Shown here in pieces: positions 19,753 through 59,600 of a stretch of DNA of 64,000 nt. This DNA comes from Amoebophrya sp. A120 (lineage: Eukaryota > Protista > Dinoflagellata), in contig CAJINV010000004.1 of assembly GCA_905178155.1 (NCBI GenBank), forward strand, positions 1,713,929 to 1,777,928, given 5' to 3'. A model generated the notes under the pieces. That model worked only from the letters and a program-made list of their open reading frames with translations. It did not search any database and was not told where the DNA came from. Made by a program: the position numbers and the translations under genes. Position 1 is the first letter of the stretch. Each line of letters starts with the position of its first letter.

Positions 19753-22618
19753 ATGGTTCTGGTACAACTACCCACGTCCCTACGCGCAGGGCTTTCAAGG
19801 TCCTCCTCCGCAGCTCCATCATGGCCACTCTTCTCGACTATTTTTGGAGCTCCGACCACTCCGAGGGCAAGTTGGAGGGCACCGAGTTCTCCAGGGGTTG
19901 ACGCGCCACCAGTGGCACTACGGCGCAATCGTGATGCGTTTTATTTTCGACCTGCTGCGATAACTAAAACTATTACTAGGGGAATATTTTTTGCAACAGG
20001 ACGAGGGGACAAGAAGAACTCCTCTACATCTTGCGGTTCTACCACCACCGCGAAAGGAAGACGTGTGTCGCTAATGTTACCCCCGCAATTGAATGAGAGT
20101 GATCTTCTTCTTCCAAGTATTGCATTCGGACCCGCGCAAGCAAACGCAAAGTTCTGCAACATCACGCCCTTCCAAGAACTTTCGAAAATGCAGATTTCAT
20201 CTCGCAGGTTGTTCAGTTCATCGCCGCTGTCAGGGACACCGATACGTACTGGCGCCGCTTCTGGACCTACAGCAACCTCACCCCCGCAATCTTCTGCGCC
20301 ATCGGGAACAGCACGAGAACATGAACAAGCGACAATAGACGATAGTATTACTAAAATGCAGAAGAACATCCAGTATCCAGTGCAAATATGTCTGGGTCTT
20401 GAAGAAGAGTAGGACTTGTAATGGCTGTCTTGCAACATTCCTGGAAGGCGAAAGCCTGTGTTGCGTGAGCAGCAAAAGAGCAGCTTCCTTTGTCATACAA
20501 AACCGAACTTTGTCATGCGGGCTAGTCATGATCAAAAAGCGTTCCAAAAACTTGTCATGGTCAGCTGCCAAAAATGCAATGCGCAGCAATCTATCATGCG
20601 CATTCAGCATCACGGGTTTCCAGACCCAGACATATTTGCACCGCACATACAGAACGACGCAGCAAGTCCGAGTACTAGCACAACCACTTCCACCAGCTCC
20701 ATCCCCGTCGAAGTCCTGCAGACCCAAGTGACCGACCTGCAGACCCTATGCACTGCAAAAGTATCGTACTCGTATAAATGCATTACAAATTTCCTCAGCA
20801 TGAGAAATAAAATTTGTAATGCTGATTTACCTTGACAAGCAGATTTGTAATGCATGATTGCAATACGAGTACGATACTTTTGCACAGGATAGACCCGGGT
20901 CGAGAAGCTGGAGAAAACAGCTAAGTCTGCCATATGGCGTTCGCAAACGCTATATTCTCAACTGTTACATGAATTTGTAATGCAAGAATGCCAAAAGTGC
21001 AAGGGTGAAGATTGCGCCTTTTGCATTACAGGTTTGGCACAGATTTAGATGCTGTTTAAGTAGCCCTTTGGAAATTTGTCATGCGAAGCAGCTTGATGAT
21101 AGTGATACTGATGAGAGTTTTACATGACAAATTCACGCACCACTTGAGAGTGTAACGTTTGAGAACCCCAAATCCCAAGTCCGCAGGTTTTCTCGCGAGG
21201 TTCATGAGCTTTTTCCAGGAGTACGGTACGCCTTTCATCATCTACTTATCAAGTGCAAAAATGTCTGGGTCTGGAAGGGTTGAAACTTGTGATGCAAACT
21301 CTGGAACGCACAAAAATTTGTGTTGCATGAGCGCCAAAAGCTGCTGTCCATTTCTTGGCACGTAAGTAGGAAGTTTCTCATGCGGGACAGGCATCATGAC
21401 GCTTGCTCAAATCCTGTGATGCTTTTGCCTGCATCAGACGCCATTTGCGTGATCCGAAACATGCATGACAAATCTCGCAATCTTCCAGACCCAGACATTT
21501 TTACATTTGATACTACTACGGGGTCGCGTATTGCGGAATGTTCGTAGGGTTTCTCGCGCTGTTTCAACTAGAAACTATGCCAGTGCACAACTGCTTCTGT
21601 CTCTCCTCATTTGTTATGCTGAAAGAACGCAATTCCATACGATGTCGATGCGTTGCCTGGTGTCGGGACTGACTGGCATGACAAGTTTCAGCTTCATCTC
21701 GAACAACACTTCTTCTAGGATCCGCAGGTAGATTTGTTATGCAGAGCATGCATCTCATTCTCATTCTCATCTCCATCTGCCACCCTTTCTTGCTAGTTCG
21801 CCATAAAATTTCAAATGGGTAGGAGTGGAGGTCATGATTGTGCAATCTGACAGAAATCCTCCCGGATCCGTTGGATTTGCTGGACCAGTTTGGGTTCGAG
21901 CTGCCGGAGTCGCTATCCAAGTTGAAAATGACCTGTTTTAGTGTGTTAAGTCTGTGTATGTACAAACACTACAGTAGCGATGACGTATGCGTGTCCACAT
22001 GTTAGCTGCGCATGAGGATGAGTAGCTTTCTTTGTCGTGCAGAGTAAATTTTTGATGCTAGCACTGTCCAACTCCAAGAGTGCTATGCCAACATGCACAC
22101 AATTTTTTTCCTGGATAGTCGCTGCTCAGCAGGGTCGAACGGGGTGGCGTCGGAGGCGGTGAAGATGATAACAACGGGCCTGATGGAAGAAACGATGCAT
22201 CGGTGGGAACACCCATATGGGATTGTTCTCAACTGTTACATTCTCAACTGCTATATGATTTGTCATGCAAAATGAGCATCAACATCCACACAGGGAAGCT
22301 ACTTCGCATGACAAATTTTGGAAAGGCGAAACAGCGCCTAATTTGTGCGGAATTTGTCATGCTAAAGGTGCAACCTCCCTGCTTTGACTTTTGCCAACAT
22401 TCTTGCATTACAAATTCATGTAACAGTTGAGAATGTAACACTTGAAAACCTCATAACCCAGTCCAAGCAAGCGCCCACTCTCCGAACGTGTCGACCCCTT
22501 CTGGCTGCGAGTTTTGGTCTCGTTCGTACTAAACGAGGCGCTCGAGGTACCCAGATTCTTGCTGGTCGCAGCCACGTTCAAACCGCTGCTGGCACTGTTC
22601 CAGAAGCTGAAACGGTAG
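19753..22618 (+). CDS. DUF1279/FAM210-like mitochondrial membrane protein; 7 introner introns
   Basis: Spliced product contains RFMSFFQEYGTPFIIYYGVAYCGMFVGFLALF and VLVSFVLNEALEVPRFLLVAATFKPL, resembling the DUF1279 pattern; transit-peptide-like N-terminus. Confidence 0.7.
20374..20647. mobile_element. Introner family A
   Basis: DR tccag/tacag. Confidence 0.82.
20747..20891. mobile_element. Introner family B (reverse)
   Basis: DR gaccc/gaccc. Confidence 0.92.
20933..21172. mobile_element. Introner family C (reverse)
   Basis: DR tgcca/tccca. Confidence 0.85.
21247..21512. mobile_element. Introner family A (reverse)
   Basis: DR ctact/ctact. Confidence 0.92.
21576..21852. mobile_element. Introner family I-like (diverged)
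   Basis: tgcacaa/ttgtgca termini; DR gaaac/gaaat. Confidence 0.7.
21914..22117. mobile_element. Introner family D-like
   Basis: DR gtcgc/gtcgc. Confidence 0.8.
22216..22455. mobile_element. Introner family C
   Basis: DR accca/accca. Confidence 0.9.
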
Positions 22619-23423
22619 CTGAACATGTACAGAAAAGACGCGACGAAAGATTGGTCTTGACAAGCCCTTGGAAATGAGTGCTGAAGACAGGGAGGGTGGT
22701 CTCTTGAACAGGTCGCGCTGTCGTGATCTTACTTGGTAAGCATAAAGTAAATGCGCAAAAAAACTTTCGCTCAGTGCCTGAGGACTACAAAAAGCCTCGC
22801 TTTTGTAGACTACTACACGAACACAGATCCAGATGAAACACCGGCTGACCAGCGCCACGTGGTGACTCACTGCTTGATCTATGGTGTGTGCTGCTGTGAT
22901 GTTTCTTTATATAAACGTTGCTGAAGAACTGTTGAGTCGTGAATTTCTCGCATCTCGTGTAGTATCTTCATCCGTCCTTGCCCCGGTTTTTTCATTTTCC
23001 AGGGTCGTTGCGTCATCTCAAGAGCTTTCCAACACTTCTCGGGGACAGTACACCGGTTCTGTTTTGCACGAATCGCCACGATGTCCCATTCTCGCACTTG
23101 CTATATTTACGATGGATAAGTCGTAAGCGTAACACAACGAATTCTGTTGAGTGCGGATCGTGAGAGCAGGGAGACGGAGAGCATAAGGAGAAAAATCGAA
23201 TGCACTTCCCTGCAGAAGATAAAAGAACAGCACCCGAGGTCAATAACAGTCAACATATTCGTACCTGTTTCGACCTCGATCGCCGCTATCGAGTAAGTAG
23301 CACCTGATACTGTACTTCCAGGACCTCTAGTGCCGAGTTCAGGAGGCTGGGCTCTGCGCTTCATACTGAAGCTTACTTAACGAAATTGTTTCGAGCACAC
23401 TTTATTTCTCAAAACCAAACAAG

Positions 23424-28515: not shown

Positions 28516-31500
28516 CTCATCGCCGTTCCCTTTTTTGTCGGCATTGGAGCGGTACCAATATGGGGACTCGTGTTGGACTACCTCGAGTCAAAGCGCACAC
28601 TGACCACCGCGACCATGCTTGCGCTCGTAGGATGCTTCGCCCTCGGGCAAAACCCTGGGTACTTCAGCGCGTTTCTGCTCTTCCTTGGCGTCAACGGCAT
28701 GCGGCTTAGCATCGCCGCGCTAGTGCAGCAGACGTGCATATGCGGTGCGAATAGGTCTGGACCCTCTGGAGGAATGCAAGGTCTCATGCTGTCGACTTGG
28801 CATCAGTATCACAGTAAAGCGGCTATCCTGCTGGTGCACATGAGCACCAGGAGCAAAAGTGCGTAAGTACTCTTCACCACGCGAAAATGACATTCCCCAA
28901 GCCTAGTAGGCATAGAGCGCGAGAGCAGATCTATTTCTCAAAACTTGTCGTGTCGCGCGTATCGCAGACCATCTTTTGTGTGATGCGAAAGCTGCATCAC
29001 TTCAAACAACCACAGTCTTCCAGAAGATCCGGACGTATTTGCGTTTGATAGTGGAAGAGCAGCTACGGGCAGGACAGATACGGTATTGGAAGCAAGGTGA
29101 ATAGTGCTACTGCTACCATGCCCATGTCCATTGAGGACCATTGAGGAGCTGTCTTGCATATTTGATTTGAATGAAGCATCAGTATTTTATGTGATGAGTA
29201 GATGCTCGCCAGCACTCCAACTCATTTGTCCTCCAAGCGTCGATCGCACTACATCACAGGCAAAGCGTTCTGTTTGGCCGCCGCGTTGGAGCTCGTAGGC
29301 GTTTTTTTCGGGCTACAAGTAACCAATCTTTCCTGGGCTGCGCACTACTATCGAATGAAAAAAGTTCGTCACGATCACTCATGCTCATTTTTGCGAAAGC
29401 GAATACAAACCTGTCATGCTTATAAAATGCATTGCCGTCAAATAAATTTCGATTTCCTCCGTGATTTGGATTTCAGCCCTTCTCTTGTGTTAATGCAATA
29501 CAAGAAAAAACTGTGACGCCAGTGCCAGAGACATTTGTCATGCCAGACCTGCAAAAAAAAGTTGACTGTGGGGAATTTTCTCCTGTCCATAACTACGTCG
29601 CCGGCAGCAGTAAATGCGTGGGAATGTGTGTGGATTTCAAATTTGCGTTCCACCTCTGCCTTCCTGTAATTACGGTTTTGTGTGTTAGCCTGGCGCTTCT
29701 AACACGGATCCCGCAGGTGACTGTACTCGCAAATAGTAGCGCCCCGAGGTCACCTTCGGCCTCGCTGCAGGGGAGACAGGTATGTATTAAAGAAGTAACA
29801 AGTTTGCTTGTTGCGATCATGTTGATTCACGATTTTTTGAAGCAAGTACTGGTTTTCTGGTGCTGTCCGGATTTGTGTACCTACTCATCAAGGAAAAAGA
29901 GACATTTGGAAAGCTGCATTCACACGCGCACACCACATCCAACACCGAGGTCCTCCGCCCGCGGTCCATTTCCGGTGCCCGACTTTTCTACGTCGTGGCT
30001 GCCATGAGCTGGTGTGGCTGGGGTGCGTTGCTGTGGTTTGGTGCATTGTTCGTGACGAAGGAGCTCTATCGAGGAAAAAAACTGCGTTTAGTGTAAGTAA
30101 GTCTCTGAAGACTACAACAGCATGACGAATTCACTCTGCAGAAACAGAGCAAGCCTGTCATGCATGGTCAGTAGGTGAAAAGAAAAACGCGTATGAATAA
30201 TAAAGGGCGGGACTTCAGGGCTGTCTGGCATGACAAGTGTATGACTACGTCGTGACTATATTTTTCTGCACATGTAGACGATGACGAGACTTGACTTCTT
30301 ACAAGCACATGCACAGTTTTTATCTTGCATAGGCTCTACCTCGTGTTCAATGTGTTCCGGGACGATGTCCGGGTGCTGGGTATCCTGTGTGCTAAAAACG
30401 TCCCCACCCCCAGAGTTGTCATGCAAAGTCGATGGCATGCCTAAAATTTGTCTCATGCGCAATCCGCCCATGAGGGCCATTTTCTATTATTACTCTCTGG
30501 CAGATTTTCATGCTACAATCATGATAGATGAGATAAATCGATTTGCAACGTGGCTGCACTCCCTAAATACACTCAGTGACACTGACACTACTTACCATCC
30601 CCGACTCGTCATGCCAAAAGAACTTGTTGATTATGATTTGTGTAGCCAAACCCCCAACCATCTTGACTGTAGGGCGGGGGCGTTTTTACTCAGGATACTG
30701 GGGAATCCGATGCTCAGGTATCATGGGTCGTGTTGATGCAGTGGCATGCTTTTCGACGTAGAACGCGTTCTATACTCTTTTTAGTCACTCATGTCATCGG
30801 CAAGAGAAGCAATCCAAATGTTCTCCGGAAGTAGGAAACAATCAGCCACATTTACACTCGATTGTTGATTGTTCGAGTGGTTCTTCAGCGGATCGTTCTG
30901 TGTTATACGAATAAGTACGGATGCACCTCGGTGCATCATTTTCGAGTCGTTGGTGTAGCGTCTACTAGGCTAGTGGGCTTGGTCATTGGCATTCGGCCCT
31001 GCCCCGCGGAGTGTTGGCAGGGGCTGTTGGTTTTTAGGCGTATTTGTTTTCCTGCATCCTCAGGGCTACGGAATCTCCCAGAACGGAGGCTGAGGGGCTA
31101 GGGGCCCCCTTTAGACTGCCCGGGGAGGGTCTCTCTTGTTGTCTCTGCCCCGGGGCAGTGAAAGGCTCTTGCTTCCAGGTTGGGTATATGACTTTGCAGC
31201 GTTGATTAATATGCCGCCGCTGGCGGCCGTGGCAGCGGGCCTACTCCTTGCAGGCCAGGTCCAGGTAGGCGGGGCCCTTAGTTGTTCGCAAGAAGTTGCA
31301 ATGGGTTAGCTCTCCTCTCCTGCTGGTTTTTCACGGTCTCTCATTTGTCCGGGCTGGTTCAGCGCGTCCCTTTCCATGTGGCAGGGCCCTTGCAGTTACA
31401 CCTCGGAGTGCAAGGGACTCGGGTAGATGGCTTTGAATTCACTGGGGGAAACGGCTGTGCCCTACGCCTTGGGTTTTCTGGTGCGGCAATTGTGGTATTC

Positions 31501-34500
31501 ATTCATCGGCTAACTTCGGGTCGGGAACGGAAGCTGGCTTTGCGGGGATGTCGCGGCTTATGGGGTTAGCCTTTGCCTTCGGAGGCCAGCATTTTCACTG
31601 CGCGCACCCAGGGGTGCTGGAGGTTGGTGCCTATTGATTCAGCTTGGAGTTGAAAGCCCGACGTGGACAGGGACTAGGGCCGCAGGCGGCCACGGCACTG
31701 CTGGCACTCGAGGACGTGTTTCCCGGGCATACCGGGCGGACAGGGGAGGGCTGGCTTTGTTACCACAAGGCGCGCTGCGCGCCCGGGGCGCATTCGGGGG
31801 GGGGGGCAGCAGGCCCCGGATGCTTGTCTGCAGGATGCACCGGCTAGGTGTTAGCACTCACGCTCCAATCAACTGGCACGCAACTCTTGGCCAGGCGGCC
31901 ATCTCTCTTGGGCCTGGTGACATTTTTGCCCTTGGGGGCAGCAGGGCTGTTTCTGTACTTTGGTGTTCTTTCTCTTGCCGACCGGACAGGAAGCGCCATC
32001 TCATACTCATGGCTGGGATAGGAGTATTTTAGTCCAAAGCTGTAGGCTCGGAGGCACTAGCAGCTCTCTGTGTGTGGATTGGCGCTGTGCGGCTCTAGAG
32101 CTTCGGCAAGCGATTTCGGACCGCCGAGCCCGGCGGGGGGCCTGGCATTTGGGATCTTAGGCGCTCTGGGTCGGGTTAGCACACATGGTTGGATTTGGCA
32201 CGGGCCTCATAGGTTGATGGCAGATGGCTACTGGCGCTGCCTCCCCAAGAGCCTGATAGAACCGCGTCGGGGCGCCCCGGGCAGGGCGGGTCTAGGCGAT
32301 GTCGACGCTTCTACAAGTAGAAGCAGCGTCTGGGCGGATATCGCAGGGGTGGTCTCCCCCTTGCCTTTCTCTCTCTCTTGGCTGGTCTAGTTTGGTAGCG
32401 GAACCCACATGCGCGCCGGTTATTTGGTGGCGGCCAGGAGATTTAGTCGCTTGGGAAGTTATGAGCACGCACAGGCCCGGTTCCGGAAGCGTTGTTTTTA
32501 GGCCGGGTTTTTTGAGGCATGAGGCCCTTGTGTCCGAAGTCATGGGAAGCATATCATACATCCTGGGGGCAGACGCAGGGCCACTAGTTGGGTCAATAGC
32601 TTGGGTCTCATTCGGGGACTACGCCCAACATAGGTGGAGCAGGGTCGAGGACAGGCAGGCCCAACATTGTTGATTGTTCGAGTGGTTCTTCAGCGGATCG
32701 TTCTGTTTTATACGAATAAGTAGTGCTGTAAGTACGAGTACGTTACATGATAGATCACTACAGTGAACAAGAATTTCAAATGAATTGTAAGTTGTAAATA
32801 ATATTATTACTTATTTTCCAGCTCACCCTTACCCCTGACCGATCCGGGGAAGCAATCTTTCGCGCTGGTTTTATCCCACGAAAAAATTGTTACCGTGACA
32901 CATTGATTGATTTGTAACTTCAGCAATACAATAAACTCGCTCTGCATGACAGAGAAAACTTGCAATGCAGAGATCATAAGGTGGAAAAACACGTATGAGG
33001 CGAGGTTCGAAAGCATATCGTGCATGACATGCGTAATTCTCTGTATAACTGCATGTTCTGCAAGATCACAATGTGTGACTGTAAAAACGGTTTTTCCTTT
33101 GCATACGTTTCGCACCTGAGCTACACCACGATTATCTCTTCCATCGTCGGGTGCTTTTTGCTCTTGAGGTTTGTTTATGCAATGCAAAAGCATCGTACTA
33201 GTTAGTATAAAATTGCATTACAAATTAGCCCAGCATTACAAATTGACTTTGTAATGCTGATTTACCTTGAGAAAAAGTTTTGTAATGCGTAAATGCAATT
33301 ACTACGACTACGATACAACTTTCGCACAGGATATTGTTTTCCTGAACAACCGGAAAAACTACCTGATCACGATATCCTGAGTCAAAACGTCCTCCCCACC
33401 CCAGAGGCAAGATGCCCATTTTGCTACACAAATGAGCAAGTTTTGGCTGTTTCGCATGACAAAAGCTTCGAGATGGCATTATAAAATGCTTTTGATGGGT
33501 CTCCGCATGAGAAACATTTTAAGCATGCAGATTTGCATATGCAGCTCTGGGGTGGGCACGTTTTTCCATGGGATACAGGAAACTGTACAGCGACGTGGGC
33601 AACAACCTTCTCTGCGCAAACCTGCTCCTCTATCGCAAGAAAATAAAACCGTCTCAGTCTCAAACCGTAGTTACTGTAGTTGCAGACCCAGCAATACAAA
33701 TTTGCAGCTCAGCATCATGAAGACACGAAAATAAGACTGTGATGCGTCAGACACTACAAGGGTGGGACACACATAATATGAAAGAAGACTCTCTAGCATA
33801 TGGAGCATGACAATAAAAATGACGCAAGGAAGTTGCGCAGTGCAAGTTGAGACTGTGAGGCAGTTTTCCTTTTCTCTCGCGATATCCTCCCCTTCCTTTT
33901 CACTTCCTACCCACTGATATCCAAGGAAAAAACGTTGTTAGTGTAAATTTGTGATGCGCAGCATGCAAGATGATTGCGTCTGTCATGCTTAGCATGCATC
34001 GTAGCGTCCACTAAAGGGCGTTTTCGCGTGCTATCTGCGCATGACAGGTTTTTGCTGTCATGCCAGACAAATTTGTAATGCTGTTCCTCCAAAAAAGTTA
34101 CACCTACAATCTTTTTTCCTGGGATAACTGAAGTTTTTCCTCTACTAACAAATGCATAATACATTTGAGTCTGGAAATTGGTGATGCTCTATCTTGTATG
34201 GTTCAACCAGTTATTTCAAGCACTGCCAAGCATGACAAGTTTTTAGTTTTACCGTGCTTTCGCGTAGATAGTACGCATAACTATTACAAAGTAATGCGTT
34301 CCACCTGCGCAAGAAAAAAGCGCCCCTACTTTGCTGGTCATGCAACACAGATTCTGCAGGCATGCAGGAGAAGTACCAGAAGTTCCGCACTTCACGATCC
34401 ATACCCAGACACAATATTTGCAATGCATATCTACTGCTGGGCCGCAAGTCTGGGACTATGTCTTGCAATGCAGCTGTGTCTACCGCCGCTGATTGTCACG

Positions 34501-42700: not shown

Positions 42701-44405
42701 GGAGGCTACGCATCGCAGAACGATATCGTAAGAGCGTGAATTGCATATGCAAACTTGACGTTGAGGAGGAAGATTGGAATTTGTCCTGCTGATGAAGGTG
42801 GGGAAGCAGACTTGTGATGCATGTTACTGCAATGAGTACGACTACGATATTACTTTTGCATCGGATAGAGGCTGAGAAGGTCTGGAAGGAGGACGTGAAG
42901 AAGGAATTGGAGATATTGTGTGTAAAAACGTCCCCATACTTCAATCATCGACAAATCTGCATGCTTCAAATGTTTCGCATGCAAAGTTTCATGAGAATCA
43001 TTTTCCAGTGGTATACGTGATGCTCGAATCAGCATGAAATGCTCGCTAGCTATACCTAAACACGACTGCAATATTGCGAGCCCAAAGTTGTCATGCCCGA
43101 AAGCCAAAACGCATTGAATTTTCTAGCAGATTTCCCATCTTGCCTCTTGGCTGTGGAGTCCGTTTTTACTCACGATAGGAAAAGCGGGAGAAACTGGCGA
43201 AAAGCGGAGGGAAAAGTGCTGAAGTAGGAACAAAGGCAACAACGACAGCCACGACGAAAGCCTCAACACCGCTCTGTCTGTATCCTGTGCAAAAGTATCG
43301 TACTCGTATAAATGCCAGACTAGCATGACAAATCTGGTTTCTTAGGTAATTTAGCATGACAAATTCATTTTTTCATGCTGAGGAACTTTGTAATGCATTT
43401 ATACGAGTACGATACTTTTGCAGTTCATAGTCTTGCATCGGATGACGCGGCCAAACACTTGTATTTTCGCTTTGGATATCAGCTGCAACTATGTGCCTGG
43501 GTCTGGAAGATTGCAAGACTTGTCATGCTAGTCTGGCATGACGCTGCACATGCACTCTGTATTGCCTGGCCGCAAACACGCTCTCCCGCCTGTCATGCAA
43601 AAACGCAGCGTCTCATGCGGGATAAAAAGTACGCAGCACAGAAGCACGAGAAAGCTTGTCATGCTTGGCGGCGCATTTTTACAGTGCGCTTCTATATAAT
43701 TCTCTGACTGGCATCTTCACAGCTTTCCAGATCCAGGCGTATTTGCAGTTGATATCGGGTTGGACACGGTGTCGATGAGCCGCGCGAACCAGTACATCGA
43801 CAATTTGGTGCTTCCGCCGAAGGTACTAGAAGTAGTTGTATTTTGTGCACGAGTTTTGTGTCACTTGCAATGATCTTGCTCCTCGTTCTATTTTATAGAA
43901 AAGTAGTATAAAGAGAAATGCTTCTACGTGGTCTTAGTCTTACTGCGTTCGTCTTTGATTGTGGTGACACATCAACTTCGATTCTTGCATCAGTTTTATG
44001 TTTGTAAAAAAATATTTAGAAAAGCAGGATCGCATTTTTTTCAAGATCAAGGTAAAGAATCGACACAAAATCCACGCAAACCTCCAGGTGTCTTTCGGCC
44101 CCACGCACTACCGGCAAACGCATGTGACATTAAACCAGCCCGCTACTGTGCAAGACACGACGAAAACCGAAGTTTCGCTCGACATCTTTTCCGCCGAAGA
44201 CACCCCGTACCTCTGGACGCTCCAGGTAACGGCGGAGGTGATGGTGCAAACAGGCGCGCGCTTCAGGGTGGTTGCGAAGTTAAAAGAGATGATCGCGAAA
44301 GCTGTGGCGCACTGGGGCCTCCCCGAGCTGAATCACGAGCTTTCCCCCTTCCGGGAGATTGCGGAAAGTTTGACGCTGCTGTTTGTCAAGGAGGTTCTGG
44401 TTTGA
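36755..44405 (+). CDS. Large low-complexity hypothetical protein with a signal-like N-terminus; 14 introners plus 2 canonical introns (39268-39493, 43823-44027)
   Basis: Frame traced continuously through all junctions, ending ...NLVLPPK|DRIFFKIKV...KEVLV*; start codon uncertain. Confidence 0.65.
37374..37536. mobile_element. Introner family B (reverse)
   Basis: DR atccg/atccg. Confidence 0.9.
37596..37783. mobile_element. Introner family D
   Basis: 26-bp near-perfect TIR; DR ggcac/ggcac. Confidence 0.92.
37947..38134. mobile_element. Introner family B-like (degenerate)
   Basis: DR tggag/tggga. Confidence 0.7.
38643..38853. mobile_element. Introner family B-like
   Basis: DR cagaa/cagaa. 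Confidence 0.8.
38905..39200. mobile_element. Introner family C-like
   Basis: DR ttccg/taccg. Confidence 0.78.
39538..39849. mobile_element. Introner family A-like (old)
   Basis: DR tctgg/agtgg. Confidence 0.75.
39856..40120. mobile_element. Introner family A
   Basis: DR gtggg/gtggg; only 6 nt from the previous element. Confidence 0.92.
41304..41619. mobile_element. Degenerate introner
   Basis: tgcacaag/cttgtgta termini; DR cgttc/cattt; frame restored. Confidence 0.6.
41831..41979. mobile_element. Introner family B (reverse)
   Basis: DR aacta/aacta. Confidence 0.92.
42063..42216. mobile_element. Introner family B (reverse)
   Basis: DR cagaa/cagaa. Confidence 0.9.
42707..42867. mobile_element. 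Introner family B-like (diverged)
   Basis: DR gaggc/gaggc. Confidence 0.78.
42914..43177. mobile_element. Introner family F
   Basis: DR ggaga/ggaaa. Confidence 0.82.
43281..43429. mobile_element. Introner family B
   Basis: DR gtctg/gtctt. Confidence 0.9.
43477..43754. mobile_element. Introner family A
   Basis: DR ttgga/tcggg. Confidence 0.85.
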
Positions 44406-45609: not shown

Positions 45610-48600
45610 ATGGCCGTTCCACTTTTCGTCCGCTACCTGTACTCCCTCATTCGCAATGGGATGTGGGAGGATGCGGCTGTCGCCCGGACGGACCCTGTGT
45701 TTCAGAACTTCAAAGATATTCTGTTGCTGAATTATAGCAACACCAGCCAAGAAGTAGTCGCTGGGATATCAAAAAAGCCTACAACACCAGCACCAGCAGG
45801 AGGACCCCAGCAAGGACCACCACCACGTGCTGTCGCTGCCAGCTATTTGTTTACCAATGCTGAGGAACTTGTCGCCCCCTACTTGACCTGGCGCTTTTCG
45901 TACCTGGTTTGCGGGTCGTTTTTCGGGCTTTGGAAAATCATTCTGGACTCGCCCATACCCGCGTTTGGGGGCAAGAGCTACGAGGAGCTTAAGCAGGACT
46001 ACAAAAAGTTTCTCCAGGAACAATTGCCTGTCGAAGTGTCGCTGGATGAGTTCGACAGTCTGCTGGAAGTGTTAACCTACGAGGATTTGGGGTTCTTCAT
46101 CGTCTCAATTGTATCGGTGTTCTTCACGATTGTATCTGTCTTGTTGCTGCTTTCGCTGTTTCGGACACTGCCGCGCGCGGTGGGGCCGGCGCGAAGCGGT
46201 GCTGTTGCTGTAGTTTCTGATGCTAATTTATTTCGAAGAAGCGCGACAACGCGCCTCGGGACGACGAGGACGAGCTCGGCTTCATTCTCTCCATATCAAA
46301 TGCAAATATGTCTGCTGGGTCTGGAAGGTTCGAACTTGTGATGCTAACTTTGGACTCTAAAAATATCTGTATTGCATGACCAGCAAGAGGAGTGTAGTTT
46401 GTGCTACGCGGGGAGGGCATTTGTCATGCGAAGTAGGCATCAGGAAGCCCTCTGAAAATCTGTGATGCTAGGTCGTGCATTACAGACATCCTGCTGGGCC
46501 ATGCAAAATATGCATGGCAAACCCGGCAACATTCCAGACCCAGACACTTTTGCATTTGATACACCAACGGCCTACGCAAACCCACACGGCGCAGCAGCTG
46601 TACCACAGGTGGACGAAGCCGTAACAGTTGTTCTTGGGAAGCCGCAAATTTTTTTACATGGCGGGGGAAACAAGCAAGTGCAAGGAGGGCCGCCGAGGAC
46701 GTCAGGGGCAAATAAAGAGGTGGGAACATCATTAAACATTCAAGACATTCTTATGGAAGCGTCAGGATCGAAATCGTGAAAGTTGAAATAGTTTGTGATG
46801 CATAAAATGGATACCAGTTGTAACCCAGCTTCCAAGTGGCGCATGACAAATTTGGGTAGAGCCGAAAGGCAGTTTGTCATGCTGTCTGAGTAACGAAGAC
46901 GCCTTTTGTCATGCTACTTTAGCAGCTCAGTTTCTACCTCTCAACAGGCTTACAATCTGCCTAGCTTGCCTACTCTGCAAGACAGGCACTTCGTGCGCTG
47001 CATTTTATGCATGACAAATCATTTCAACTTTGTCGATTTCGATTCTGACACTTCCATAATTCTCCAGGAAGAAGCCGAGCGATTGAGGGCGAAGCAACAG
47101 AAGTTCTTCGTGAGTCAGTCGCCAGCTGCGCATATCCTGTGCAAAAGTATCGTACTTGTAGTAATTGCAGTCATGCATTACAAACTTTTTTCCAAAGGTA
47201 AATCCGCATGACAAATTTTATTTCCCATGCTGAGGAAATTTGTAATGCATTTATACGAGTGCGATACTTTTGCGATGCATAGCGCAGCGCGCCGAGGACA
47301 AAGTTGCTCTGGAGGGTCACCATAACCTGCCCCCACCAGGACCTCCTAGTCGTGAAAATGAAAATGACATTTATTTCTCGTCCGCAGTAGATGGGCGAGG
47401 AGCCGCACAACTAGACCGCCAGCCTCTAACCCCCGCAGTTCCCCCCGGCGTGACTATTCCCAACCTGCACTCGGCTCCACCGGATAAAAAGAATGTTAAA
47501 CCTGCCACTACGTCGTGGTCGCAGGCTTCTCTAGCGGGCGGAAGTAGTGGTCTTCTAGATCCGTACAGACCTACCCCGGAGCAGCAATATGAGTACAACG
47601 CAGTGGACTTCGATTTGTCAGACTACAACACCGCAACGTCATCAAATGTCGCAAGGCATCTTCAAACGGCGCATCATGCAAGAGCAAATGGCTCTACTAC
47701 AACTCACGGTCAAGATGAGCCCGACGTTCTCCGCGCTTTGCCGGAAGCTAAGGAAAAAACCAAATTGCTTTTCCACACCATCGCTTACTCCCGCAAAACC
47801 GTGGCACTCGCTTGGCTGATTGCGTTTGCTCCCCCGTTTCTATTCCTCCTCATCTACCCGATTCGGTCGGCAGTAGATTGGGACCAAGTCGTTGCGGACG
47901 TGTGCGTTTACAGTGTGAAAATGGTCTTCGACAGCCCAGGGACGGAAGTGCAAAACACCTTGCGACTCGTCAGCGAGGCCGGGTTACTGGATGCCGACAC
48001 AACTCTGTTAACCGACGTGGACAAGCTCCCGGAGTGGTGCAGCCTGCAAAACCGGGAGTGGCACGAAAAATTCTACAGCAACGCGCTCCGCTGCGCCTGG
48101 GTCGTGGAGGACCGGTGTCGCGACATCTATTGTGCCGCCGCCGCATTCCCCGCGAACGAAGTGAAAAAAGTACCGGAATGCTTGACGGACTGTCTCTCCT
48201 TTGCCATCGCCAAAGTGGGCGTCGCCACCGTCCGCCGACAGACACTGAACATTTTTGCCACTTGTTCCGACCGCAACGCGCCATTCACTTTGGGGATCAA
48301 ACCTATGTAATCGGAATAAATCTATCGCAATACTACATGCAAATCGCCTACGCCTGCTATATCAATATACTTACACTGTCATCTAATTTTTATCAAGTTG
48401 ACAAGGCAGTGCACATTGTAATCAATGCTGAATCATCTGTAGAAAAAAGTTATGTCATGCCAGATGCCATTGAAGAAATACATACGAGTATCGGATAGTA
48501 CTTTTGCAGTGGATCCTTCCCCCAAAGTTACGATTTTCATCGTCCACCAGCACACCGAGGGAACTGTTACCGCCGCGCGAACAAGGCCCTTCTGTTTCTG

Positions 48601-51592
48601 GTGAAGGAGCAAAAGATCAGCAAAGAAGTCGCGGTGCTTCATCGGCACTACACACGAAGGCGGAACAAGCTCCACTGGGATTTTTGCCTGGCCAGAAAAC
48701 AGCAACTGTAGAGGCTCCTGTAGATGACGCACCAGAACTACTGGAGCACAAGAACGGCAGAGGAGGTGCTGACCATGGCGAGATTGTCCTCGCGGCTTTG
48801 CAAGATGAACTCAAGCTGCAACCTCGAGGATTTTCCTATCAACAAGCTTCTCCTGCTACTTCTTCCGGGTCAAGAATTTCTGGAAGGCTTCAAGATCACG
48901 CTTCTTTGACGGAGAACTTCCCTATGCAGCAGGAGGAGTCTACTTTTCACGCCGCCCTCTTAGCACGCCGACCACACAGCAGGCCGCCGCGACGTGCTCT
49001 CACGACTGTGTCCACCACTCTGGCCCTGGCGGACTACTTTTCCACCGTCATATCGACAGTAAATTTCCTGTACACGTACAAATGCTGTCTCTGCATGAAA
49101 AAATTTGCCTTCAATCCTAGTGTAGCATGACAAGTTGTACACTGCAAGTTAGCAAAATGTGTCATGCATTTTGTACATGTACAGGAAATTTTAATTTACA
49201 TTGCATACGTCACTCACCACTTTTACGACATTTTCATTTACACCAACCGACAACTGATTCTCACCGGCAGCGCCGCTGCCACCTTTGCCTCGGTCCAGGC
49301 CGAGTACGTGGTCGGCTTACTCGTCGCGATCGCGTCCAGTAGGGTCCTCGTGGCGTCCGCTCTGTCACTGCTGGGCGGTCTGGCGGAGGCGTTGCTGAAC
49401 CAGAAGGCGCTTTTTCCCTTGTCTCAGCACGGCGGCTGGATTCTCATTTTGACTCTGTGCGAAGCGCTCCCGGTATACGCCGCATTGCTGGCGCTGTTGC
49501 AGCAATTAATCGGAGACTACGTGTTCTCCCTGGTGTGCCTGCTGTTCTTAGCGTACATCTATCCACTGCAAATTTATATTGCCTGGATGTAGAAAACAAA
49601 GGAAACTTGTCATGGTGCTGAAGTACAACTTCGCAGATGAGGAGCAGATTCAATCATCGCAGTTGGCAAGCTCAAGCAAGCATGACGAGTTTTTTCTCGG
49701 CGCCAGTTCCTCGCTGTGTGAGTATTTGATATGAAAACATCCACTTTCGTCGCGAGTAAGCACTTACATCAAACAAGTCCGAGTGATGTTGTCGGACAGC
49801 ATGCGGTTGTACAAACGCTAGATCCACATTAGACACACATAATGTCCAGTTCCAAGAAAGCCAGACATAAATATTTGCAATGTCGATGACACCGCGACGG
49901 GAATCCGCACCGGTTGGAGACTGCTGACTCTGCGGAAGATGAATTTCGACTTGAGTAGCCTGAGTGCGTCCTCTATCAAGGAGAAAAGACCCATCCCCAC
50001 GATCCAATTTGTCATGCACAACATGCATGAAGTCCAGTGTTTGCCATGCAAAAAATGGATGGGGATGGTTTTTTTTCTAGGGATATCCTCGGGCTTTGGG
50101 CTTCTTCGTGGAGCGGACGCGGAGGAGGCGAACCTGCCCAAGGTGGACGGACAGGCTCTGCTACCCCCGGCGGAGGACGGCGGAAGGCAAGAAGGCACTC
50201 CCCCTGGAGCCGGGGCGGCAACAAGTACAAAGCAGACGGCGAGCAGTGTGCCAAGAACATCGGCAGTTAGTGCCTCCGCAAACGTGGACCACAACGATAC
50301 AAAGAGAATCAGCACCGCGCAGCTTGTTCGAGATGAACAGGAACCACACAGCTTCCAGAGGGCACAACCTCGGCCAGCGGCATTCCGGCAAGGCAGCGGC
50401 AACCTCGAGTCCTTTAACGAGCACCTCGAATATGCAAATACAGATAATTCCAATTTCCCGCACACGTACAGAATGCATGAAAGTTAATGAATTCTGGCAG
50501 CTATAATTTAAGAAGAGCCTGCATTCAGAATTGTAAAAATGCTGAGCACTACTAGTAGTACTAGTAGCCCTTTGGCTAAACGTAGCCCTAGTAACTAGGG
50601 CTAGCGCCGTACTAGCTCAAAGGAAAGCTTTTGTCAACATCATGCGGGAACGAGCGCAAATCGTACGTGTAGTCTGGAGGGAAAAATGAATTTTCTTTGG
50701 ACATCAAGGAAAAGCGGGATGTGATGTATCGTTACATCTGGCTCGATTACGGGATGAAGTTTCTCTGTCTAGCCCTTCTGGTTTTCACTCTCTTCCTATG
50801 AGAGTGCACAAGTCCCGACCCTCATCCAACTCATTTGTTTCCACGAGCCGTTGCCTCTTGTTTGCACTGCTTGCATGACCAGTTCCGGAAGGCGAAACAC
50901 GACTAGAATCGGGCATCAATTTGTCATGCAAAAGCTGCATTCTTGCCAGGGCTTGTGTTGCTGTGAATGCCATCCAAATGAGGGGGAGGGGGAGTTGTGC
51001 TCTCTCATACTTCCACTGGTGCTCGTCGCGCGGCTACACGGCGCTGCAAGCCGAAATCTTAAAGGAATTGCTGGAGCCGATCACGTTGATAGGATTGATT
51101 GTTGATGTGGTCACGAAAAAGATCATCACCGCTGTCGCCGGGACGGATCTGATCTTGTTATCAACTGCAAATTATGTAATCTGGGTCTGGAAACTTGTGA
51201 TGCGCGTCGGACGAGCATGAGGACATTTGTCGCAATTTTTGCTGGAGCAAATGGCAAACTCATTTGGAGCATTTGGGTACAACATACATGACAGACTTTG
51301 GAGTTCTTGTTTTCATGCTGGCCGAGCATGGCAAACCGTGCACTACTCTTCCAGACCACCCAAACATATAATTTGCAATCCATACTGATACGGCTACTGC
51401 AAGACCGAGCTTTGGTCCTTGCGGAACCGCAACAGGCTTGCCGGGTTAGACGTGTCGGAGTTCGCGGTCAGCGACAAGCAGATGCAGGTTTCTTTGGAGG
51501 AAATGGGGCTTTTGGTAGGGGCAACGGAACTCGACGCGTTTTTAGCTGGGCCGGGGGGCGGTGGAGTAGAGAGCGGAATAAAGCGGGCGTAA
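45610..51592 (+). CDS. Multi-pass membrane protein of unknown function with a Cys-rich loop; 10 introner introns
   Basis: Several hydrophobic segments (FFIVSIVSVFFTIVSVLLLL, LAWLIAFAPPFLFLLIY, GGWILILTLCEALPVYAALLALLQQ, FLCLALLVFTLF); frame restored at each element. Confidence 0.7.
46294..46561. mobile_element. Introner family A (reverse)
   Basis: DR ctcca/cacca. Confidence 0.9.
46752..47058. mobile_element. Introner family E (TIR tatggaagcgtcaggatc, ~58 bp)
   Basis: DR attct/attct. Confidence 0.92.
47133..47281. mobile_element. Introner family B
   Basis: DR gcgca/gcgca. Confidence 0.92.
48304..48515. mobile_element. Degenerate B-like introner
   Basis: Right end tacttttgcagtggat; DR decayed; frame restored. 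Confidence 0.55.
49051..49207. mobile_element. Introner, single-copy family H
   Basis: aaatttcctgtaca/tgtacaggaaattt TIR; DR cgtca/cgtca. Confidence 0.85.
49560..49888. mobile_element. Introner family A-like (degenerate)
   Basis: DR acatc/acacc. Confidence 0.7.
49974..50085. mobile_element. Introner family D (short subfamily), in-frame and stop-free
   Basis: DR tcctc/tcctc; homologous to 2201-2317. Confidence 0.88.
50431..50706. mobile_element. Degenerate introner
   Basis: Starts tatgcaaat; approximate right end; frame resumes KRDVMYRYIWLDYG. Confidence 0.45.
50797..51009. mobile_element. Introner family I (TIR tatgagagtgcacaa)
   Basis: DR cttcc/cttcc. Confidence 0.88.
51159..51384. mobile_element. 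Introner family A-like
   Basis: DR cttgt/ctgat. Confidence 0.78.
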
Positions 51593-52554: not shown

Positions 52555-55049
52555 ATGCTTCTTGTACTTGTTCCACCTTTTACATCGTGGCGAGGACGGC
52601 CACGCCTACGAGCTCAGCCACCGCTCGTGCTAGCCGCTCTGAGGGTCATCGTCGCGCACCTCGGATGTCATCTAGTATCGCCTTCCCACGGCCATCTCCG
52701 AGGTCAAAACGGAATCAGATCGCGAGCAGGAGAACAAGAAGACACGACCGCGGCTGGGGAAGACTCGACTCAGTTGATGACGAATGATCCACACGAGGAC
52801 ACGATACAGACACAGGCGTTTTTGGAGCTGGACACGTCGGGAGAGGGCCGTTCTACTTCCATGCTGGAGGAGGGAGAACAAGACCAAGATGATCTACTTC
52901 TCTACTCGGGAAAAACGTCAACAACAAGAACAGCATCAGCAGCCCCCGCCGCGAGCTCGACCCTGTTGGAGATGGAAGTCGGGACCAGAAGTATGGAAGC
53001 GTCAGGATCCAAATCGACAAAGTTGAAATAGAAATTATTTGTCATGCATAAAATGCAACCCACAAAGTGCCTGTCTTGCAGCGTAGGCAAGGGAGGCAGA
53101 TTGTAAGCCTGCTGAGGGATAGAAATAGAGCTGCTAAAGTAGTATGACAAAAGGCGCCTTCCTTACCCAAACAGCATTACAAACTGGATTTAGGCACCAC
53201 CAAAATTTGTCATGCGCCACTTACAAACTGGGTTCCAACTCGCATCCATTTTGTGCATGACAAATCATTTCAACTTTGTCGATTTCAAACCTGACACTTC
53301 CATAAGAAGCAAGCTACCAGAAGGTGGAGCCTTCTCGTTCCGAGTATGCAATGCAAAAGCATCGTACTAGTATAAATTGCATTACAAATTAGCCCAGCAT
53401 TACAAATTTGATTTGTAATGCGGATTTGCCTTGAGAAAGAGATTTGTAATGCATGAATGCAATTACTACGAGTGCGATACTTTTGCACAGGATACAGAGA
53501 GCCGCTGCGGCCGCACCAAGTGGGACTGATCGGAGGTAATCACTCGTTGCGTGGTGTCAAAACGATCAACGATCTGGATTTCTACGACGAGTATCGCGGT
53601 CACAAAATCGGGCACCTCGAGACTGTGGTCGGCCTCTTCACACAGTGTCACAAGCTGCCGGCAACCAGTCCCAATTCCTGTCCCGATACGAGCATCGTGT
53701 TCCTGTTGGGGGATAGCTCTCTGGACAACAAGCACTGGCTGTATCCCACGAAAAACGACAAAGGAGAGCCAGACAAAGCCAGCCTGGCCGACGGCTCATT
53801 CACCGCCCCGGCTGTCAACGGCTACGAGAAGGTTGTGGGTGCGAGCGGGCGGATGGTCAAAGACGTCTGCTACTGGCTCAACCGGAAGTCCGCAGAATCT
53901 TCGAAATGGTTCAAGCAGAACGAGGAGGACGTGCTGGTGAAAGAGCACCCGTACCCACACCTCCTCTTCGTGAACTCTGCCGTCGAAGAGTCGACGCTTT
54001 CCAGCCGCGCATCGGGGCTGCTTCCCCAGGACAAGTTTGTTTCGAACCACCTCAAGCCGCAGGATATTCTCTTGGTCTCCGTGGGGCACAATGACATGGC
54101 GTTTCTCCACGTGCAGCAAGCGGCGCGGGTCTATGCAAGAAAAAAACTTTGTATAGTGTAACTCTGAAATGCAGAACATGCAAGAACAGAGTTACGCCTG
54201 TCATGCCAGATAACCATGAAGTCCTCTTTTCGTGTGTGTTTTCCCTTACAAGTCACGCATGACCGGATTTCTCTGAGATGTAGAGCAAATTTGTCATTAC
54301 ACTTACGCTAACCAAAGAAGGTTACACTAACACAGTTTTTTTCTTGGATAAGGTCCTGCAAGAGGGCACGACGGATGAAAAGCTGACCCAGTTGGCGGTC
54401 GAAAACTTTTCCCATATTTACAAGGAGGACACGGAGCGGTACATCAACAGTATTCTCGGGGACTCGACGTGCAAGATGGTGGTGGTGTGCATGCTCTACC
54501 ACCTGGATGAGAATGACGAAGCATTTTCGTGGTGGGAAAGGGGGTTCCAAGCGCTGGGCCTCATTGGCAACCCGGAGAACAAGCGGCGCATGAAGGTGGT
54601 GCAGCACGCGCTTTTCGAACACGCGTTGAAGCAGCTGCAAATCCCGAACGCGGAGAAAGTGGTTCCCCTGGAGCTGTCGCGGGCACTGGACGGGACGAAC
54701 TCGCTGATGTACGAACAACGTGTTGAGTATGGCGTTCTCAAATGTTACGTTCTCAACTGTTAATACATGATTTGTCATGCAAAACTACAATCTATCAGAA
54801 TCTGAATCGGCACGGTCAAGCTGCTTCGCATGACAGATTCTTGAAGGGCCAAACAGGCTGAGAAACTGTTCTTCCAAATCTTCCATGCGAGACGCGCAAG
54901 GTCACCCCGTCCACTTTTTTCATTCTTGCGTCACAAATTCATGTAACAGTTGAGAATGTAACAGTTGAGAGCGCCATATGGAGCCCAGTGTCCTGGGGGG
55001 CGAAAAACTGGCGGACTTGATTCTGGACACCATCAAGGAAAACTTGTAA
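52555..55049 (+). CDS. SGNH/GDSL-hydrolase-like protein; 4 introner introns
   Basis: Block I IVFLLGDSSLDN, block II NSAVEESTL, block III LVSVGHND, C-terminal VEPSVLGGEKLADLIL in the last exon (54979-55049). Confidence 0.75.
52992..53304. mobile_element. Introner family E (opposite orientation to the 46752 copy)
   Basis: DR agaag/agaag. Confidence 0.92.
53345..53494. mobile_element. Introner family B (reverse)
   Basis: DR ccgag/cagag. Confidence 0.9.
54132..54350. mobile_element. Introner family D
   Basis: DR gggtc/aggtc; GT-AG register 54129-54352. Confidence 0.88.
54728..54978. mobile_element. Introner family C
   Basis: DR ttgag/tggag; alignable with 1853-2098. Confidence 0.92.
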
Positions 55050-56619: not shown

Positions 56620-59600
56620 ATGGTGGTCCACCTCCAGCAGGCCCCGCCTGTGATGAATAAGCTGCGGGTGCGTCGCAGCACCGACCACGCAGAGTTCGTA
56701 TCCTGTGGAAAAATATCGTACTCGTATAAATGCATTACAAATTTCCTCAGCATAAGAAATAAAATTTGTAATGCTGATTTGCCTTAGCAAAAAGATTTTT
56801 AATGCATGATTGCAATACGAGTACGATACTTTTGCACAGGATACTTCGATTTTGACGGCGAAAACGAAGAGATCCCGACCGAGTACCACGACCACCCTAT
56901 TGTCGTGTCTCTACGCATTGCAAAATTAAAATTATCGTACCGAGTACAAATTGCATGACAAATTTTCTCAAGAACAACAATGTTTATGTTGCAACTTGTC
57001 ATGCTAGATTACTTATGCACCGAAACAACCAAAATATAAGACAGACAGATCTGTAATGCTGATGGATGACTGCGATTAGAAGTACTACGAGCGCGATGTA
57101 ATATACTTTCGCACAGCATAGTCTCAGACATCCAACACGAACTCCGCTTCGTCCTCCTACGCAGAGCCGGTACTGTACACGAGCGGGCTACAACAGCAAA
57201 AAGGGACCACCACTGCGAACAAAAGTGCCACCTCGAATCAACAGGTAGTTAAAAGCAGCTACAATGTATCGAACAGGATGGAAATGCTGATGAACCCACC
57301 CAGCTGCACATCATCAGCGACTCAGCAACCTACAAGAACCCTTCCGCCGAGCTTTCTCCCCAACAAAAACAACAGTGGCATCGCGTTGCTCCGGAAAAAT
57401 CAACACCAGGGAGGTGGTGGCGGGAGTACTAGTGTCTACAACCAGCGTTCGGCAGCTCCATCAAGAGCTGCAGGAGGAGGAGTTGCAGGAGCAACCCGCG
57501 TATGCTGTGCAAAAGTATCGACGTACTCGTGTAAATGCATTACAAATTTCCTCAGCATGAGAAATAAAATTTGTAATGGGGATTTGCCTTTAAGAAAATG
57601 ACTTGTAATGCAAGACTTGCATTTATAAATATGAGTACGATACTTTTGCACCGGATACCGTGCGCGCAGCGCCAGCGTGACGACGCACTATACCCGCGGC
57701 GGTGTTGGCGGTGTAGCAGCAGCAACGACCGCTCCAGTGACAGAGGCCATCAATCGGGCGCTACAATTCGGGCATAGTGTTAGTAACGATGATTCCGACG
57801 TATTTTTAAACACGAGCTACGACAACGACTCCTTAGCTTCGAGGTCGACCAATTTTCAGCCAATGGCCCCGCCTTTCGTGCCATCTTCGACAAGTAAAAA
57901 CCCAAGGAATCCACCGCCCGTAGTTCACCAGTCTTCAACGGCATCGCTGCATCGAGGAAATTTTCTGCTGAGACATCCCACCGCGGGCAGTGGTGGCGCG
58001 CCACCGCGGGCAATGAGCGCAACGAACCGCAGATTTGCGACGCGGCGTGGAACAAATTTGGGAGCGGTGAGCAATGTGCTGCTCGTTCCGATGCACGGAT
58101 ATCTTGTGCAAAAGTATCGTACTCGTATTGCAATCATGCATTACAAATTTTTTTCTCAAGGTAAATCCGCATTACAAATTTAATTTCTCATGCTGAGGAA
58201 ATAATGCATTTATACGAGGACGATACTATACTTTTGCAATGCATAACGGAAAAACGGTGACGACGCCAGAGAACTCGGTGAATACCTCGTTGCTGAGTGG
58301 TGCCAGTGGTAGTGGAATGGCAGGCCAACACGTGGTCGACCGAAATCGACGAAGCCCTCACAGTTGTGCAGCAGCTGCAACTCCAGGCGGAGTAGTCGAC
58401 CCGTTGCTCCAATCTGCTGCCGCGCTCGAGCAAGCTCTGTTGGAGAAGGAGCACGAAGCACAGGAACAGAACATTGAGTCCTCTCTGATTGCCAGGACGG
58501 TTTCGTTCTCCAAGTTAAGTGGTAAGCACGACGGAACAAATACCGGGACGAACACTACTTTTGCGAATCTTCATAATGCAACTTATGATTCGGCGGGGGC
58601 TTCGAGCAAAAATTCGGCTCTGCGTCATTCGTTTTCGGAGCAACACCTACAGCATCCCGCGCGCGCGTCTCCTGGTGCGGTCGACTCTGCAATGCAAGCA
58701 GTGTTGTCGAACTCTTCGCCGATCGAGAGAGATCATAATCAGGGACAAGGAGGAATGCCGGCGCGGCCGCAGTATTACGGAGCGCAGGAGCAGCATCATA
58801 GCTTCTATCAACACGAGAACTACACAGCTGCCGTCGCTGTAGGAGTACCACGGCAACACGCAGTCCCTTCGAATAGCAGTGGAATAAATGGTGCCATCAT
58901 GCGCATGCACTCTGTCCCGGTGCTGAGTCACTCACATCGAGGACATCCCATACAACTTGCGATGTCGCAACAGCAGGGCGGCCCTTTTTACCGGTTTCAT
59001 TCCGGAAGGCAAGGGCTGCAACCGACTTCTATGGGTTTTGCTCCCGCCTCCGAAGCGGGACATGAGCACCACGCCGCTCCGTACGCTTTTCCGGCCACGA
59101 CTTTTGCTTTTGCGGGGCATTTTTACCCACATCAACAGCTCAAGAGTTCGCAGCCTAACGCTAGTACAACAGGCAGCAACCCCTTCGAAACGCCGCAGCA
59201 AAGCATCATTCCGCCCCACGTGGCCAGTGCCGGACCGGTCCCGGTGCATTCTAAATTATCTGTGTCCCTTATGACAGTGCACAACTCCCCCTCCGCCTCA
59301 TTTGTATAGCATCAACGGCAATACAAGCGTCAGCAGGAGTGCGGGTTTAGCATGACAAATTTGCACAGGAGTGTAGTGCTATTTGGGCTACCAGAACTTG
59401 TCATGCATCATAGTGACAGGAGGCAAAGCGTAGATTTGGCACTTTGCATGAGAAATGAGAACGAGGGGGAGTTCTAGTGCACTCTCATATCCCTGCAAGA
59501 ATCGCAACAGACAGTCCTGGAGGCCGGCGCCGGAGCACAACATCAAGCACCACCGCCAGTGCCCACATCGCACTTTTCCACGCTTCAGTTCCAGCCAACG

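What the first reader, a model, noticed from the sequence alone, without database searches (positions are those of the whole stretch)
21242..59494. Many introners cannot be GT-AG, GC-AG or AT-AC in any register, so removal seems to read the stem-loop rather than dinucleotides
Seen: the DRs ctact (21247), accca (22216), actac (29349), tcctc (33631, 49974), tctac (34146), aacta (41831), attct (46752), cttcc (50797) and tccct (59270) contain no G. Because the elements begin and end with TA, none of the six equivalent excision registers starts with G or ends with AG, and none gives AT-AC. The DR sequences across the window look essentially unconstrained. Inference: the paired TIRs bring the two DR copies together. 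Excision would then be by a radically relaxed spliceosome or by an endonuclease/ligase route (compare euglenid non-conventional introns and tRNA/IRE1-type splicing). A DNA-level alternative, like TA-bounded ciliate IES excision, is not excluded by sequence alone.
Basis: partly seen in the sequence, partly recalled or inferred. Interest (0 to 1): 0.85.

Follow-up and report, generated by a model that had tools for sequence, protein, structure and literature searches.

The report
Hairpin introns cut at fixed offset
These are the already described hairpin-ended, transposon-derived introns of a marine parasite (likely Amoebophrya); transcript contigs lack them exactly, without GT-AG ends, and where the cut can be placed it falls one base before and four bases after the hairpin, which likely reflects a relaxed spliceosome.

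Summary
Observation confirmed. All 12 quoted sites are real, 59 of 65 elements have no GT-AG, GC-AG or AT-AC register, and the 5-nt repeats have exon-like composition. The class is published: the introner elements of Amoebophrya A120 (Farhat 2021), with the hairpin idea and the missing U1 snRNA. New here is the cut position, which that paper left open. Mismatched repeat copies at 12 sites allow one common register only: exon|N-TAT[CG]...[CG]ATA-nnnn|exon. Its polarity follows the transcript although elements insert both ways round, which argues against DNA excision. A related strain shows empty sites (5-bp target duplication). So removal is not blind to sequence: U+2, A+3 and A-7 are constant in all 20 introns tallied. 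Best guess (0.5): a U2/U6 spliceosome with relaxed +1 and no AG need; rival (0.33): nuclease plus ligase. The scan noted similar introns in two other dinoflagellate genomes.

The parts
21247..21512 (.). TIR element, G-less 5-nt repeat; strand of host gene unresolved, not RNA-tested
22216..22455 (.). TIR element, G-less repeat; possibly in a minus-strand frame (236 codons), not RNA-tested
29349..29591 (+). TIR element, G-less repeat; removal of element+5 gives a 185-codon frame
33631..33884 (+). TIR element, G-less repeat; one of 8 whose removal gives a 307-codon frame
34146..34429 (+). TIR element, G-less repeat, same gene
41830..41983 (+). intron of G-less element 41831-41979; skipped in RNA-like contigs, no canonical register
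42913..43181 (+). intron of element 42914-43177; mismatch at repeat position 4 sets register 4-5
43280..43433 (+). intron of element 43281-43429; mismatch at position 5 sets register 0-4
43476..43758 (+). intron of element 43477-43754; mismatches at positions 2 and 5 set register 2-4
43823..44087 (+). ordinary GT-AG intron in the same transcript (control that the contigs are RNA)
46293..46565 (+). intron of element 46294-46561; register 2-5; mRNA keeps the derived upstream copy
46751..47062 (+). intron of G-less element 46752-47058; skip of 312 nt from piece arithmetic; empty site in L052
47132..47285 (+). intron of element 47133-47281; empty site in L052
48303..48519 (+). old intron, repeat copies match at 2 of 5, no significant end duplex, still cut in register 3-5
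49050..49211 (+). intron of element 49051-49207; empty site in L052
49559..49892 (+). old intron with decayed 3' TIR; register 4-5
49973..50089 (+). intron of G-less element 49974-50085; empty site in L052
50430..50707 (+). old intron with decayed 3' TIR; register 3-4
50796..51013 (+). intron of G-less element 50797-51009
51158..51388 (+). intron of element 51159-51384; register 4-5 from piece arithmetic
52991..53308 (+). intron of element 52992-53304 (same family as 46752, opposite orientation)
53344..53498 (+). intron of element 53345-53494; register 2-5
54131..54354 (+). intron of element 54132-54350; register 1-5, a GT-AG reading also fits here
54727..54982 (+). intron of element 54728-54978; register 2-5
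59270..59489 (+). TIR element, G-less repeat; removal keeps a 1407-codon frame; only the 5' side seen in RNA

Best explanation
These are TIR transposon insertions with a 5-bp target duplication that are removed from the RNA at one offset (exon|N-TAT[CG]...[CG]ATA-nnnn|exon), likely by a relaxed U2/U6 spliceosome that would use the TIR hairpin to find the intron and the TIR sequence as its splice signals. Shown: insertion with a 5-bp duplication; exact removal of element+5 nt from transcript contigs; the mRNA keeps positions 1-4 of the upstream repeat and position 5 of the downstream one; no need for G+1, for AG, or for matching repeats. Inferred: the hairpin stands in for U1-based recognition; the 5' TIR is read as a donor N-U-A-U-S, a GUA-like site with a free first base; the A at -7 in the 3' TIR serves as branch point; the acceptor is set by distance from it. 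Because the TIR is symmetrical, either orientation of a new insertion is spliceable at once, whatever the target sequence.
For: 14 element joints shown directly and 7 more from piece-end arithmetic all equal element+5. Registers 0-5 fit 1, 2, 6, 8, 11 and 8 of 11 informative sites; a twelfth (41304) also fits register 4. Joints rebuild a 1230-codon + frame over ten junctions; over the window the median open frame is 858 codons against 236 and 217 for cuts 1 nt shorter or longer. Mirror register 1 is excluded at 10 of 12 sites though one family lies 34:32 in the two orientations. +2 T, +3 A and -7 A are constant in 20 of 20 RNA-defined introns while their pairing partners vary. All nine top A120 splice pairs in Table S4 of PMC7789003 have T at +2, and the A25 ones start TT with a TIR starting TTA. 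A120 keeps U2, U4, U5, U6 and 83 of 89 proteins, U1 snRNA not found. Giardia uses a donor VTATGTT and a branch point at fixed distance from the acceptor (PMC6679479); Fritillaria splices TIR introns with the U2 spliceosome (via review).
Against: Nothing here tests the enzyme. The 5'/3' asymmetry (p 0.008 in the window, found after looking) only reaches p 0.057 in 251 independent elements, 0.049 after a post hoc filter, and 9 of those 251 vary at +2 or +3 (not RNA-tested). TIR conservation is expected from transposition alone. No U2-type branch motif and no strand-biased word near the 3' ends (79 against 78 of 251; best p 0.009 of 675 words). No link between +1 and -1 beyond exon dinucleotide bias (p 0.54), whereas known spliceosomes pair these two bases (recalled). 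20 of 21 RNA-defined introns keep an end duplex better than shuffles, so a pure stem reader fits too. RNA evidence is contigs of one sample, + strand genes only.
Confidence: 0.5

Rival explanations
1. A non-spliceosomal duplex-reading endonuclease makes a staggered cut (1 nt before the stem, 4 nt after it) and an RNA ligase joins the exons, as proposed for euglenid and diplonemid non-conventional introns.
For: Random +1 and -4..-1; 57 of 65 elements fold end to end; 20 of 21 have a significant end duplex; no orientation-specific internal signal; similar geometry in Euglena, where +4..6 pairs with -8..-6 and introns leave as circles.
Against: Four RNA-defined introns show almost no end-to-end pairing in whole-intron folds and one (48304) none locally, yet cut in the same register (its L052 orthologue pairs better). 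The constant positions are not pairing partners. The offset puts TA where GUA has UA.
Confidence: 0.33
2. The elements are excised from DNA at some life stage, like TA-bounded ciliate IESs, and transcripts come from the cleaned template.
For: TA ends and TIRs; only one DNA-like run was laid and 1,390 of its joints were hidden.
Against: Single contigs of run X1 span five elements (42707, 42914, 48304, 50431, 51159) intact at depth 43-54 with 0-1 differences. The cut follows transcript direction, not element orientation. The duplicated target is 5 random bases, not TA.
Confidence: 0.04
3. The skips are reverse-transcriptase template switches between short repeats at the foot of a hairpin (a recalled library artefact), and the RNA keeps the elements.
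For: Short repeats flanking strong hairpins are the classic setting; all RNA data are cDNA contigs of one sample.
Against: Exact skip where the repeats match at only 2 of 5 (48304); one register at all informative sites; 44 of 65 skips are not a multiple of three and 57 of 65 elements hold stops in all + frames, so retention would break long conserved frames.
Confidence: 0.03
4. Ordinary splicing at nearby GT/GC and AG pairs removes the elements.
For: 9 to 20 in-frame canonical pairs lie within 40 nt of each of 7 G-less sites checked; at 42707 and 54132 a canonical reading fits the RNA joint.
Against: At the other 18 of 20 element joints listed no canonical pair fits on the coding strand; the joints seen are not the nearby pairs.
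Confidence: 0.01

Closest known systems
Amoebophrya sp. A120 introner elements (Farhat et al. 2021, PMC7789003)
   Same: TIR starting TAT, seven looser bases, then AAA; 3-5 nt direct repeats; about 240 nt; non-canonical ends; hairpin proposed; RNA-supported.
   Different: The paper calls the splice position relative to the hairpin variable or unknown (Fig. 3 legend); here one register fits all 12 informative sites. [quoted passage not shown]
Euglenid non-conventional introns (PMC12501133; review PMC11282704)
   Same: TIR/TSD introns without GT-AG, fixed offset between stem and cut, slidable junctions solved with non-slidable cases.
   Different: Signature N3CDG..CHG-N5-6|R; +4 pairs with -6, here +2 pairs with -5; no purine needed after the acceptor here; circles shown there, untested here.
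Fritillaria borealis non-canonical U2 introns (seen only through review PMC11282704)
   Same: MITE-derived TIR/TSD introns without GT-AG, removed by a modified U2 spliceosome.
   Different: Preferred ends AG-AC and AG-AT; here +1 and the last four bases are free.
Giardia/Trichomonas introns with fused branch point (PMC6679479)
   Same: Donor VTATGTT with relaxed first base; acceptor at fixed distance from the branch A.
   Different: They keep AG and a CTRAC branch motif, are few and not mobile.
Ciliate TA-bounded IESs (recalled)
   Same: TA ends, precise removal from coding sequence.
   Different: DNA-level with a separate germ line; one TA kept. Here a 5-nt random target is kept and the DNA-like run holds the elements.

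Membership tests
Amoebophrya A120-type introner elements | terminal inverted repeat starting TAT, 7 looser bases, then AAA | tested here: met
   matrix of 50 ends; 251 elements; definition
Amoebophrya A120-type introner elements | 3-5 nt direct repeat at the exon borders | tested here: met
   5 nt; empty sites in L052
Amoebophrya A120-type introner elements | repeated families, spliced out of RNA with non-canonical ends | tested here: met
Amoebophrya A120-type introner elements | host is Amoebophrya A120 or close kin | not tested
   inferred from the motif; no marker gene examined, no genome held
U2-type spliceosomal introns | GT/GC-AG ends | tested here: not met
   0 of 65 GT-AG at register 4; 3 of 251
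U2-type spliceosomal introns | YTRAY branch motif near the 3' end | tested here: not met
   79 sense against 78 antisense of 251
U2-type spliceosomal introns | lariat product, dependence on U2/U6 | not testable with these tools
   no excised-RNA data
U12-type introns | AT-AC or GT-AG with U12 consensus; U11/U12 snRNAs present | tested here: not met
   ends random; minor snRNAs reported absent
Euglenid non-conventional introns | N3CDG ... CHG-N5-6|R signature | tested here: not met
   +2..+5 is TAT[CG], -8..-5 is [CG]ATA; signature
Euglenid non-conventional introns | intron ends pair | tested here: met
   20 of 21 end duplexes beat shuffles
Euglenid non-conventional introns | full-length circular product | not testable with these tools
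   contigs only
Ciliate IES (DNA elimination) | element absent from the somatic DNA | tested here: inconclusive
   five elements intact in one DNA-like run; most of its joints hidden; one stage only

The most novel reading that the evidence does not exclude
Amoebophrya runs a spliceosome that has dropped U1 snRNA, G+1 and the AG acceptor altogether: a transposon's terminal repeat is a complete two-way splice signal (donor N-U-A-U-S at one end, branch A at -7 at the other, acceptor set by a 7-nt ruler), shared in logic with strain A25 (T-T-A donors), so any insertion at any site in either orientation is a perfect intron from birth.
Probability: 0.35. Interest if true: 0.8.

Novelty: already known. 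Interest (0 to 1): 0.5.

Why it matters
How more than 60% of Amoebophrya introns are removed is an open question since 2021. A single, transcript-polar register turns it into sharp tests: where the lariat branch or circle junction must lie, and which TIR bases matter. It also gives gene finders a rule for this lineage. If the spliceosomal reading holds, it shows that the GU-AG ends, thought to be held by the catalytic core, can be given up wholesale.

Tried and rejected
No whole genome was held, so snRNAs, Prp8 and genome-wide counts could not be examined. In one search the DNA-like run swamped the joint table with repeat artefacts, 4 of 19 joints were not shown. A search for annotated full-length proteins with one exon found none. 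Rfam: 0 matches. Pfam: 0 families for 5 host exons, Copia domains for the long ORF. A stop-codon test of register on related contigs was uninformative. Orientation of 43477 against 46294 and 51159 from internal sequence was too weak to use, so polarity rests on the 34:32 count. A +1/-1 link (p 0.027) vanished against exon dinucleotide background (p 0.54). The -2/-1 pair departs mildly from background (p 0.015), unexplained and not toward AG alone. 'The stem is dispensable' was weakened by the local duplex test. One paper search on fixed branch distance listed nothing.
Full report
Observation. A matrix of element ends reads TAT, C or G, six looser bases, AAA. After curation the window holds 68 elements, 65 of them past position 9000, plus one found later; they make up 15 of those 55 kb. 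59 of 65 have no GT-AG, GC-AG or AT-AC in any register on the + strand; the ten G-less sites have none on either strand. 14 of 65 are G-less against 12.9 expected, so the repeats are as free as exon sequence.

What they are. A scan of metagenome contigs with a 20-base TIR gave 142 loci, 746 kb. L052 is the orthologue of window 44.1-51.9 kb at 84-95% identity. It lacks element+5 nt at 46752, 47133, 49051 and 49974 and has elements of its own, each with a 5-nt repeat, at four coding places where the window has none. These are recent insertions with a 5-bp target duplication. The motif is the one given for Amoebophrya A120 introner elements in PMC7789003 (read: abstract, passages, sections 10, 11, 12, 16, 25, 36, supplement part 3 of 5 and passages; figures not visible). 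That paper reports over 60% non-canonical introns, hairpins joining the ends, no U1 snRNA and a likely different mechanism. The host is inferred from the motif only.

RNA test. Contigs of runs X3-X6 (one sample; RNA is the tool's guess, but they skip the plain GT-AG intron 43823-44087) were laid on 41700-51120 and X3 on 39510-59500. Of 19 joints, 15 were shown: 14 elements and the GT-AG intron. Seven more element joints follow from piece ends and record lengths. All 21 equal element+5. In-frame GT/GC-AG pairs exist within 40 nt (9 to 20 at each of 7 sites) but are not the joints seen. At 2 of the 20 element joints tabulated (42707, 54132) a canonical reading also fits. The joints rebuild + strand frames of 1230, 836 and 523 codons.

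Register. Where the two repeat copies differ, the contig shows which copy was kept. Three sites need at least four upstream bases kept (42914, 49560, 51159); three need at most four (43281, 43477, 50431), as does 41304. Registers 0 to 5 fit 1, 2, 6, 8, 11 and 8 of 11 sites; chance for independent uniform registers is 0.0006 for this register, about 0.004 for any. The intron is thus N-TAT[CG]...[CG]ATA-nnnn. Strain comparison agrees: the downstream copy has drifted at positions 1-4 (48304, 49560, 51159), and the mRNA keeps a derived upstream base at 46294 and 53345. The published Table S4 lists nine top A120 pairs, all with T at +2, while the figure legend calls the border unknown. Six searches listed no paper that fixes the register; the library lacks most subscription papers and I could not see Figures S19-S25, which may bear on this.

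RNA or DNA. One family lies 34 to 32 in the two orientations relative to the inferred transcript. A cut tied to the element would show the mirror register at about half of the sites; it is excluded at 10 of 12. Single contigs of the DNA-like run X1 span five elements intact at single-copy depth, though its joint table was mostly hidden and contigs drop rare forms. Template switching is unlikely: the skip is exact where the repeats match at 2 of 5, and retention would break the frames. All RNA-tested genes are on the + strand.

Stem or sequence. 57 of 65 elements fold end to end. Four RNA-defined introns hardly do (42914, 48304, 49560, 50431), but in a local test only 48304 lacks a duplex better than shuffles, 1 of 21. 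In 20 RNA-defined introns +2 T, +3 A and -7 A never vary, while their partners -5, -6 and +4 do. In the window, changes in TIR positions 1-2 fall only at 3' ends (4) and in position 3 only at 5' ends (5), p 0.008, seen after the fact. In 251 elements of related contigs, oriented by reading frame (216 of 468 could not be oriented, 1 lay at an edge), the counts are 9 against 15 and 8 against 2, p 0.057, or 0.049 for the 174 with perfect repeats. This is a hint, not a result. There is no selection for G+1 or AG, no +1/-1 link and no strand-biased internal word: every signal lies in the symmetrical TIR.

Mechanism. I favour a U2/U6 spliceosome with the hairpin in place of U1: the offset places TA exactly where GUA has UA, strain A25 shows T-T-A starts, the snRNAs and proteins are there, Giardia uses VTATGTT donors and a fixed branch-to-acceptor distance (PMC6679479, passages), and Fritillaria splices TIR introns with U2 (review PMC11282704, passages and section 6). 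That U6 contacts +2 to +6 and that +1 pairs with -1 in known spliceosomes is recalled. The rival, a duplex nuclease plus ligase, is what is discussed for euglenids and diplonemids (PMC12501133 and PMC12621601, passages). No call tests the enzyme. Other papers seen as passages: PMC12130899 (A120 introner families, one TIR family with Copia-like sequence), PMC12005148 (a canonical-intron Amoebophrya with U1), PMC11453091.

Verdict. Real, correctly observed and published as a class. The addition is one transcript-polar cut register from 12 sites in one sample, which makes the open mechanism testable. Two earlier notes of this scan describe like introns in other dinoflagellates; I did not check them.

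Noticed in passing
window 2569-9004: Copia-type LTR retrotransposon with an open 1821-codon frame (RVT_2, gag, SH3), TG..CA ends, 182 nt of identical LTR and a 5-bp target duplication, the same length as the introners'. A Copia-like integrase could be their mobiliser; PMC12130899 describes an A120 TIR family with Copia-like sequence. Its ends are not TAT..ATA.
   Followed up: partly
window 39538-40120: Two elements 6 nt apart with overlapping repeats; at register 4 the exon between them is a single base, or they are removed in sequence. The contig start at 40122 fits either.
   Followed up: partly
window 50163: All four RNA-like runs read T, the DNA-like run C and the window A at this exon position: assembly error, strain difference or editing.
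   Followed up: no
L052 1588-1735 (window 45307): A strain-specific element upstream of the start codon, in a likely 5' UTR or intergenic stretch.
   Followed up: no
window 1-2530: Tandem repeats (about 96 nt and 11-23 nt units) followed by three TIR elements and two unpaired TIR ends outside any long frame.
   Followed up: no
window 9000-62000: Nearly all long frames lie on the + strand (59 of 66 elements in + frames of 150 codons or more), and five host exons tested have no Pfam match.
   Followed up: partly
L049-L073 and other loci: Related contigs carry the same TIR families at high density (468 distinct elements in loci over 1.5 kb), a ready set for presence/absence and insertion-bias work.
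   Followed up: partly
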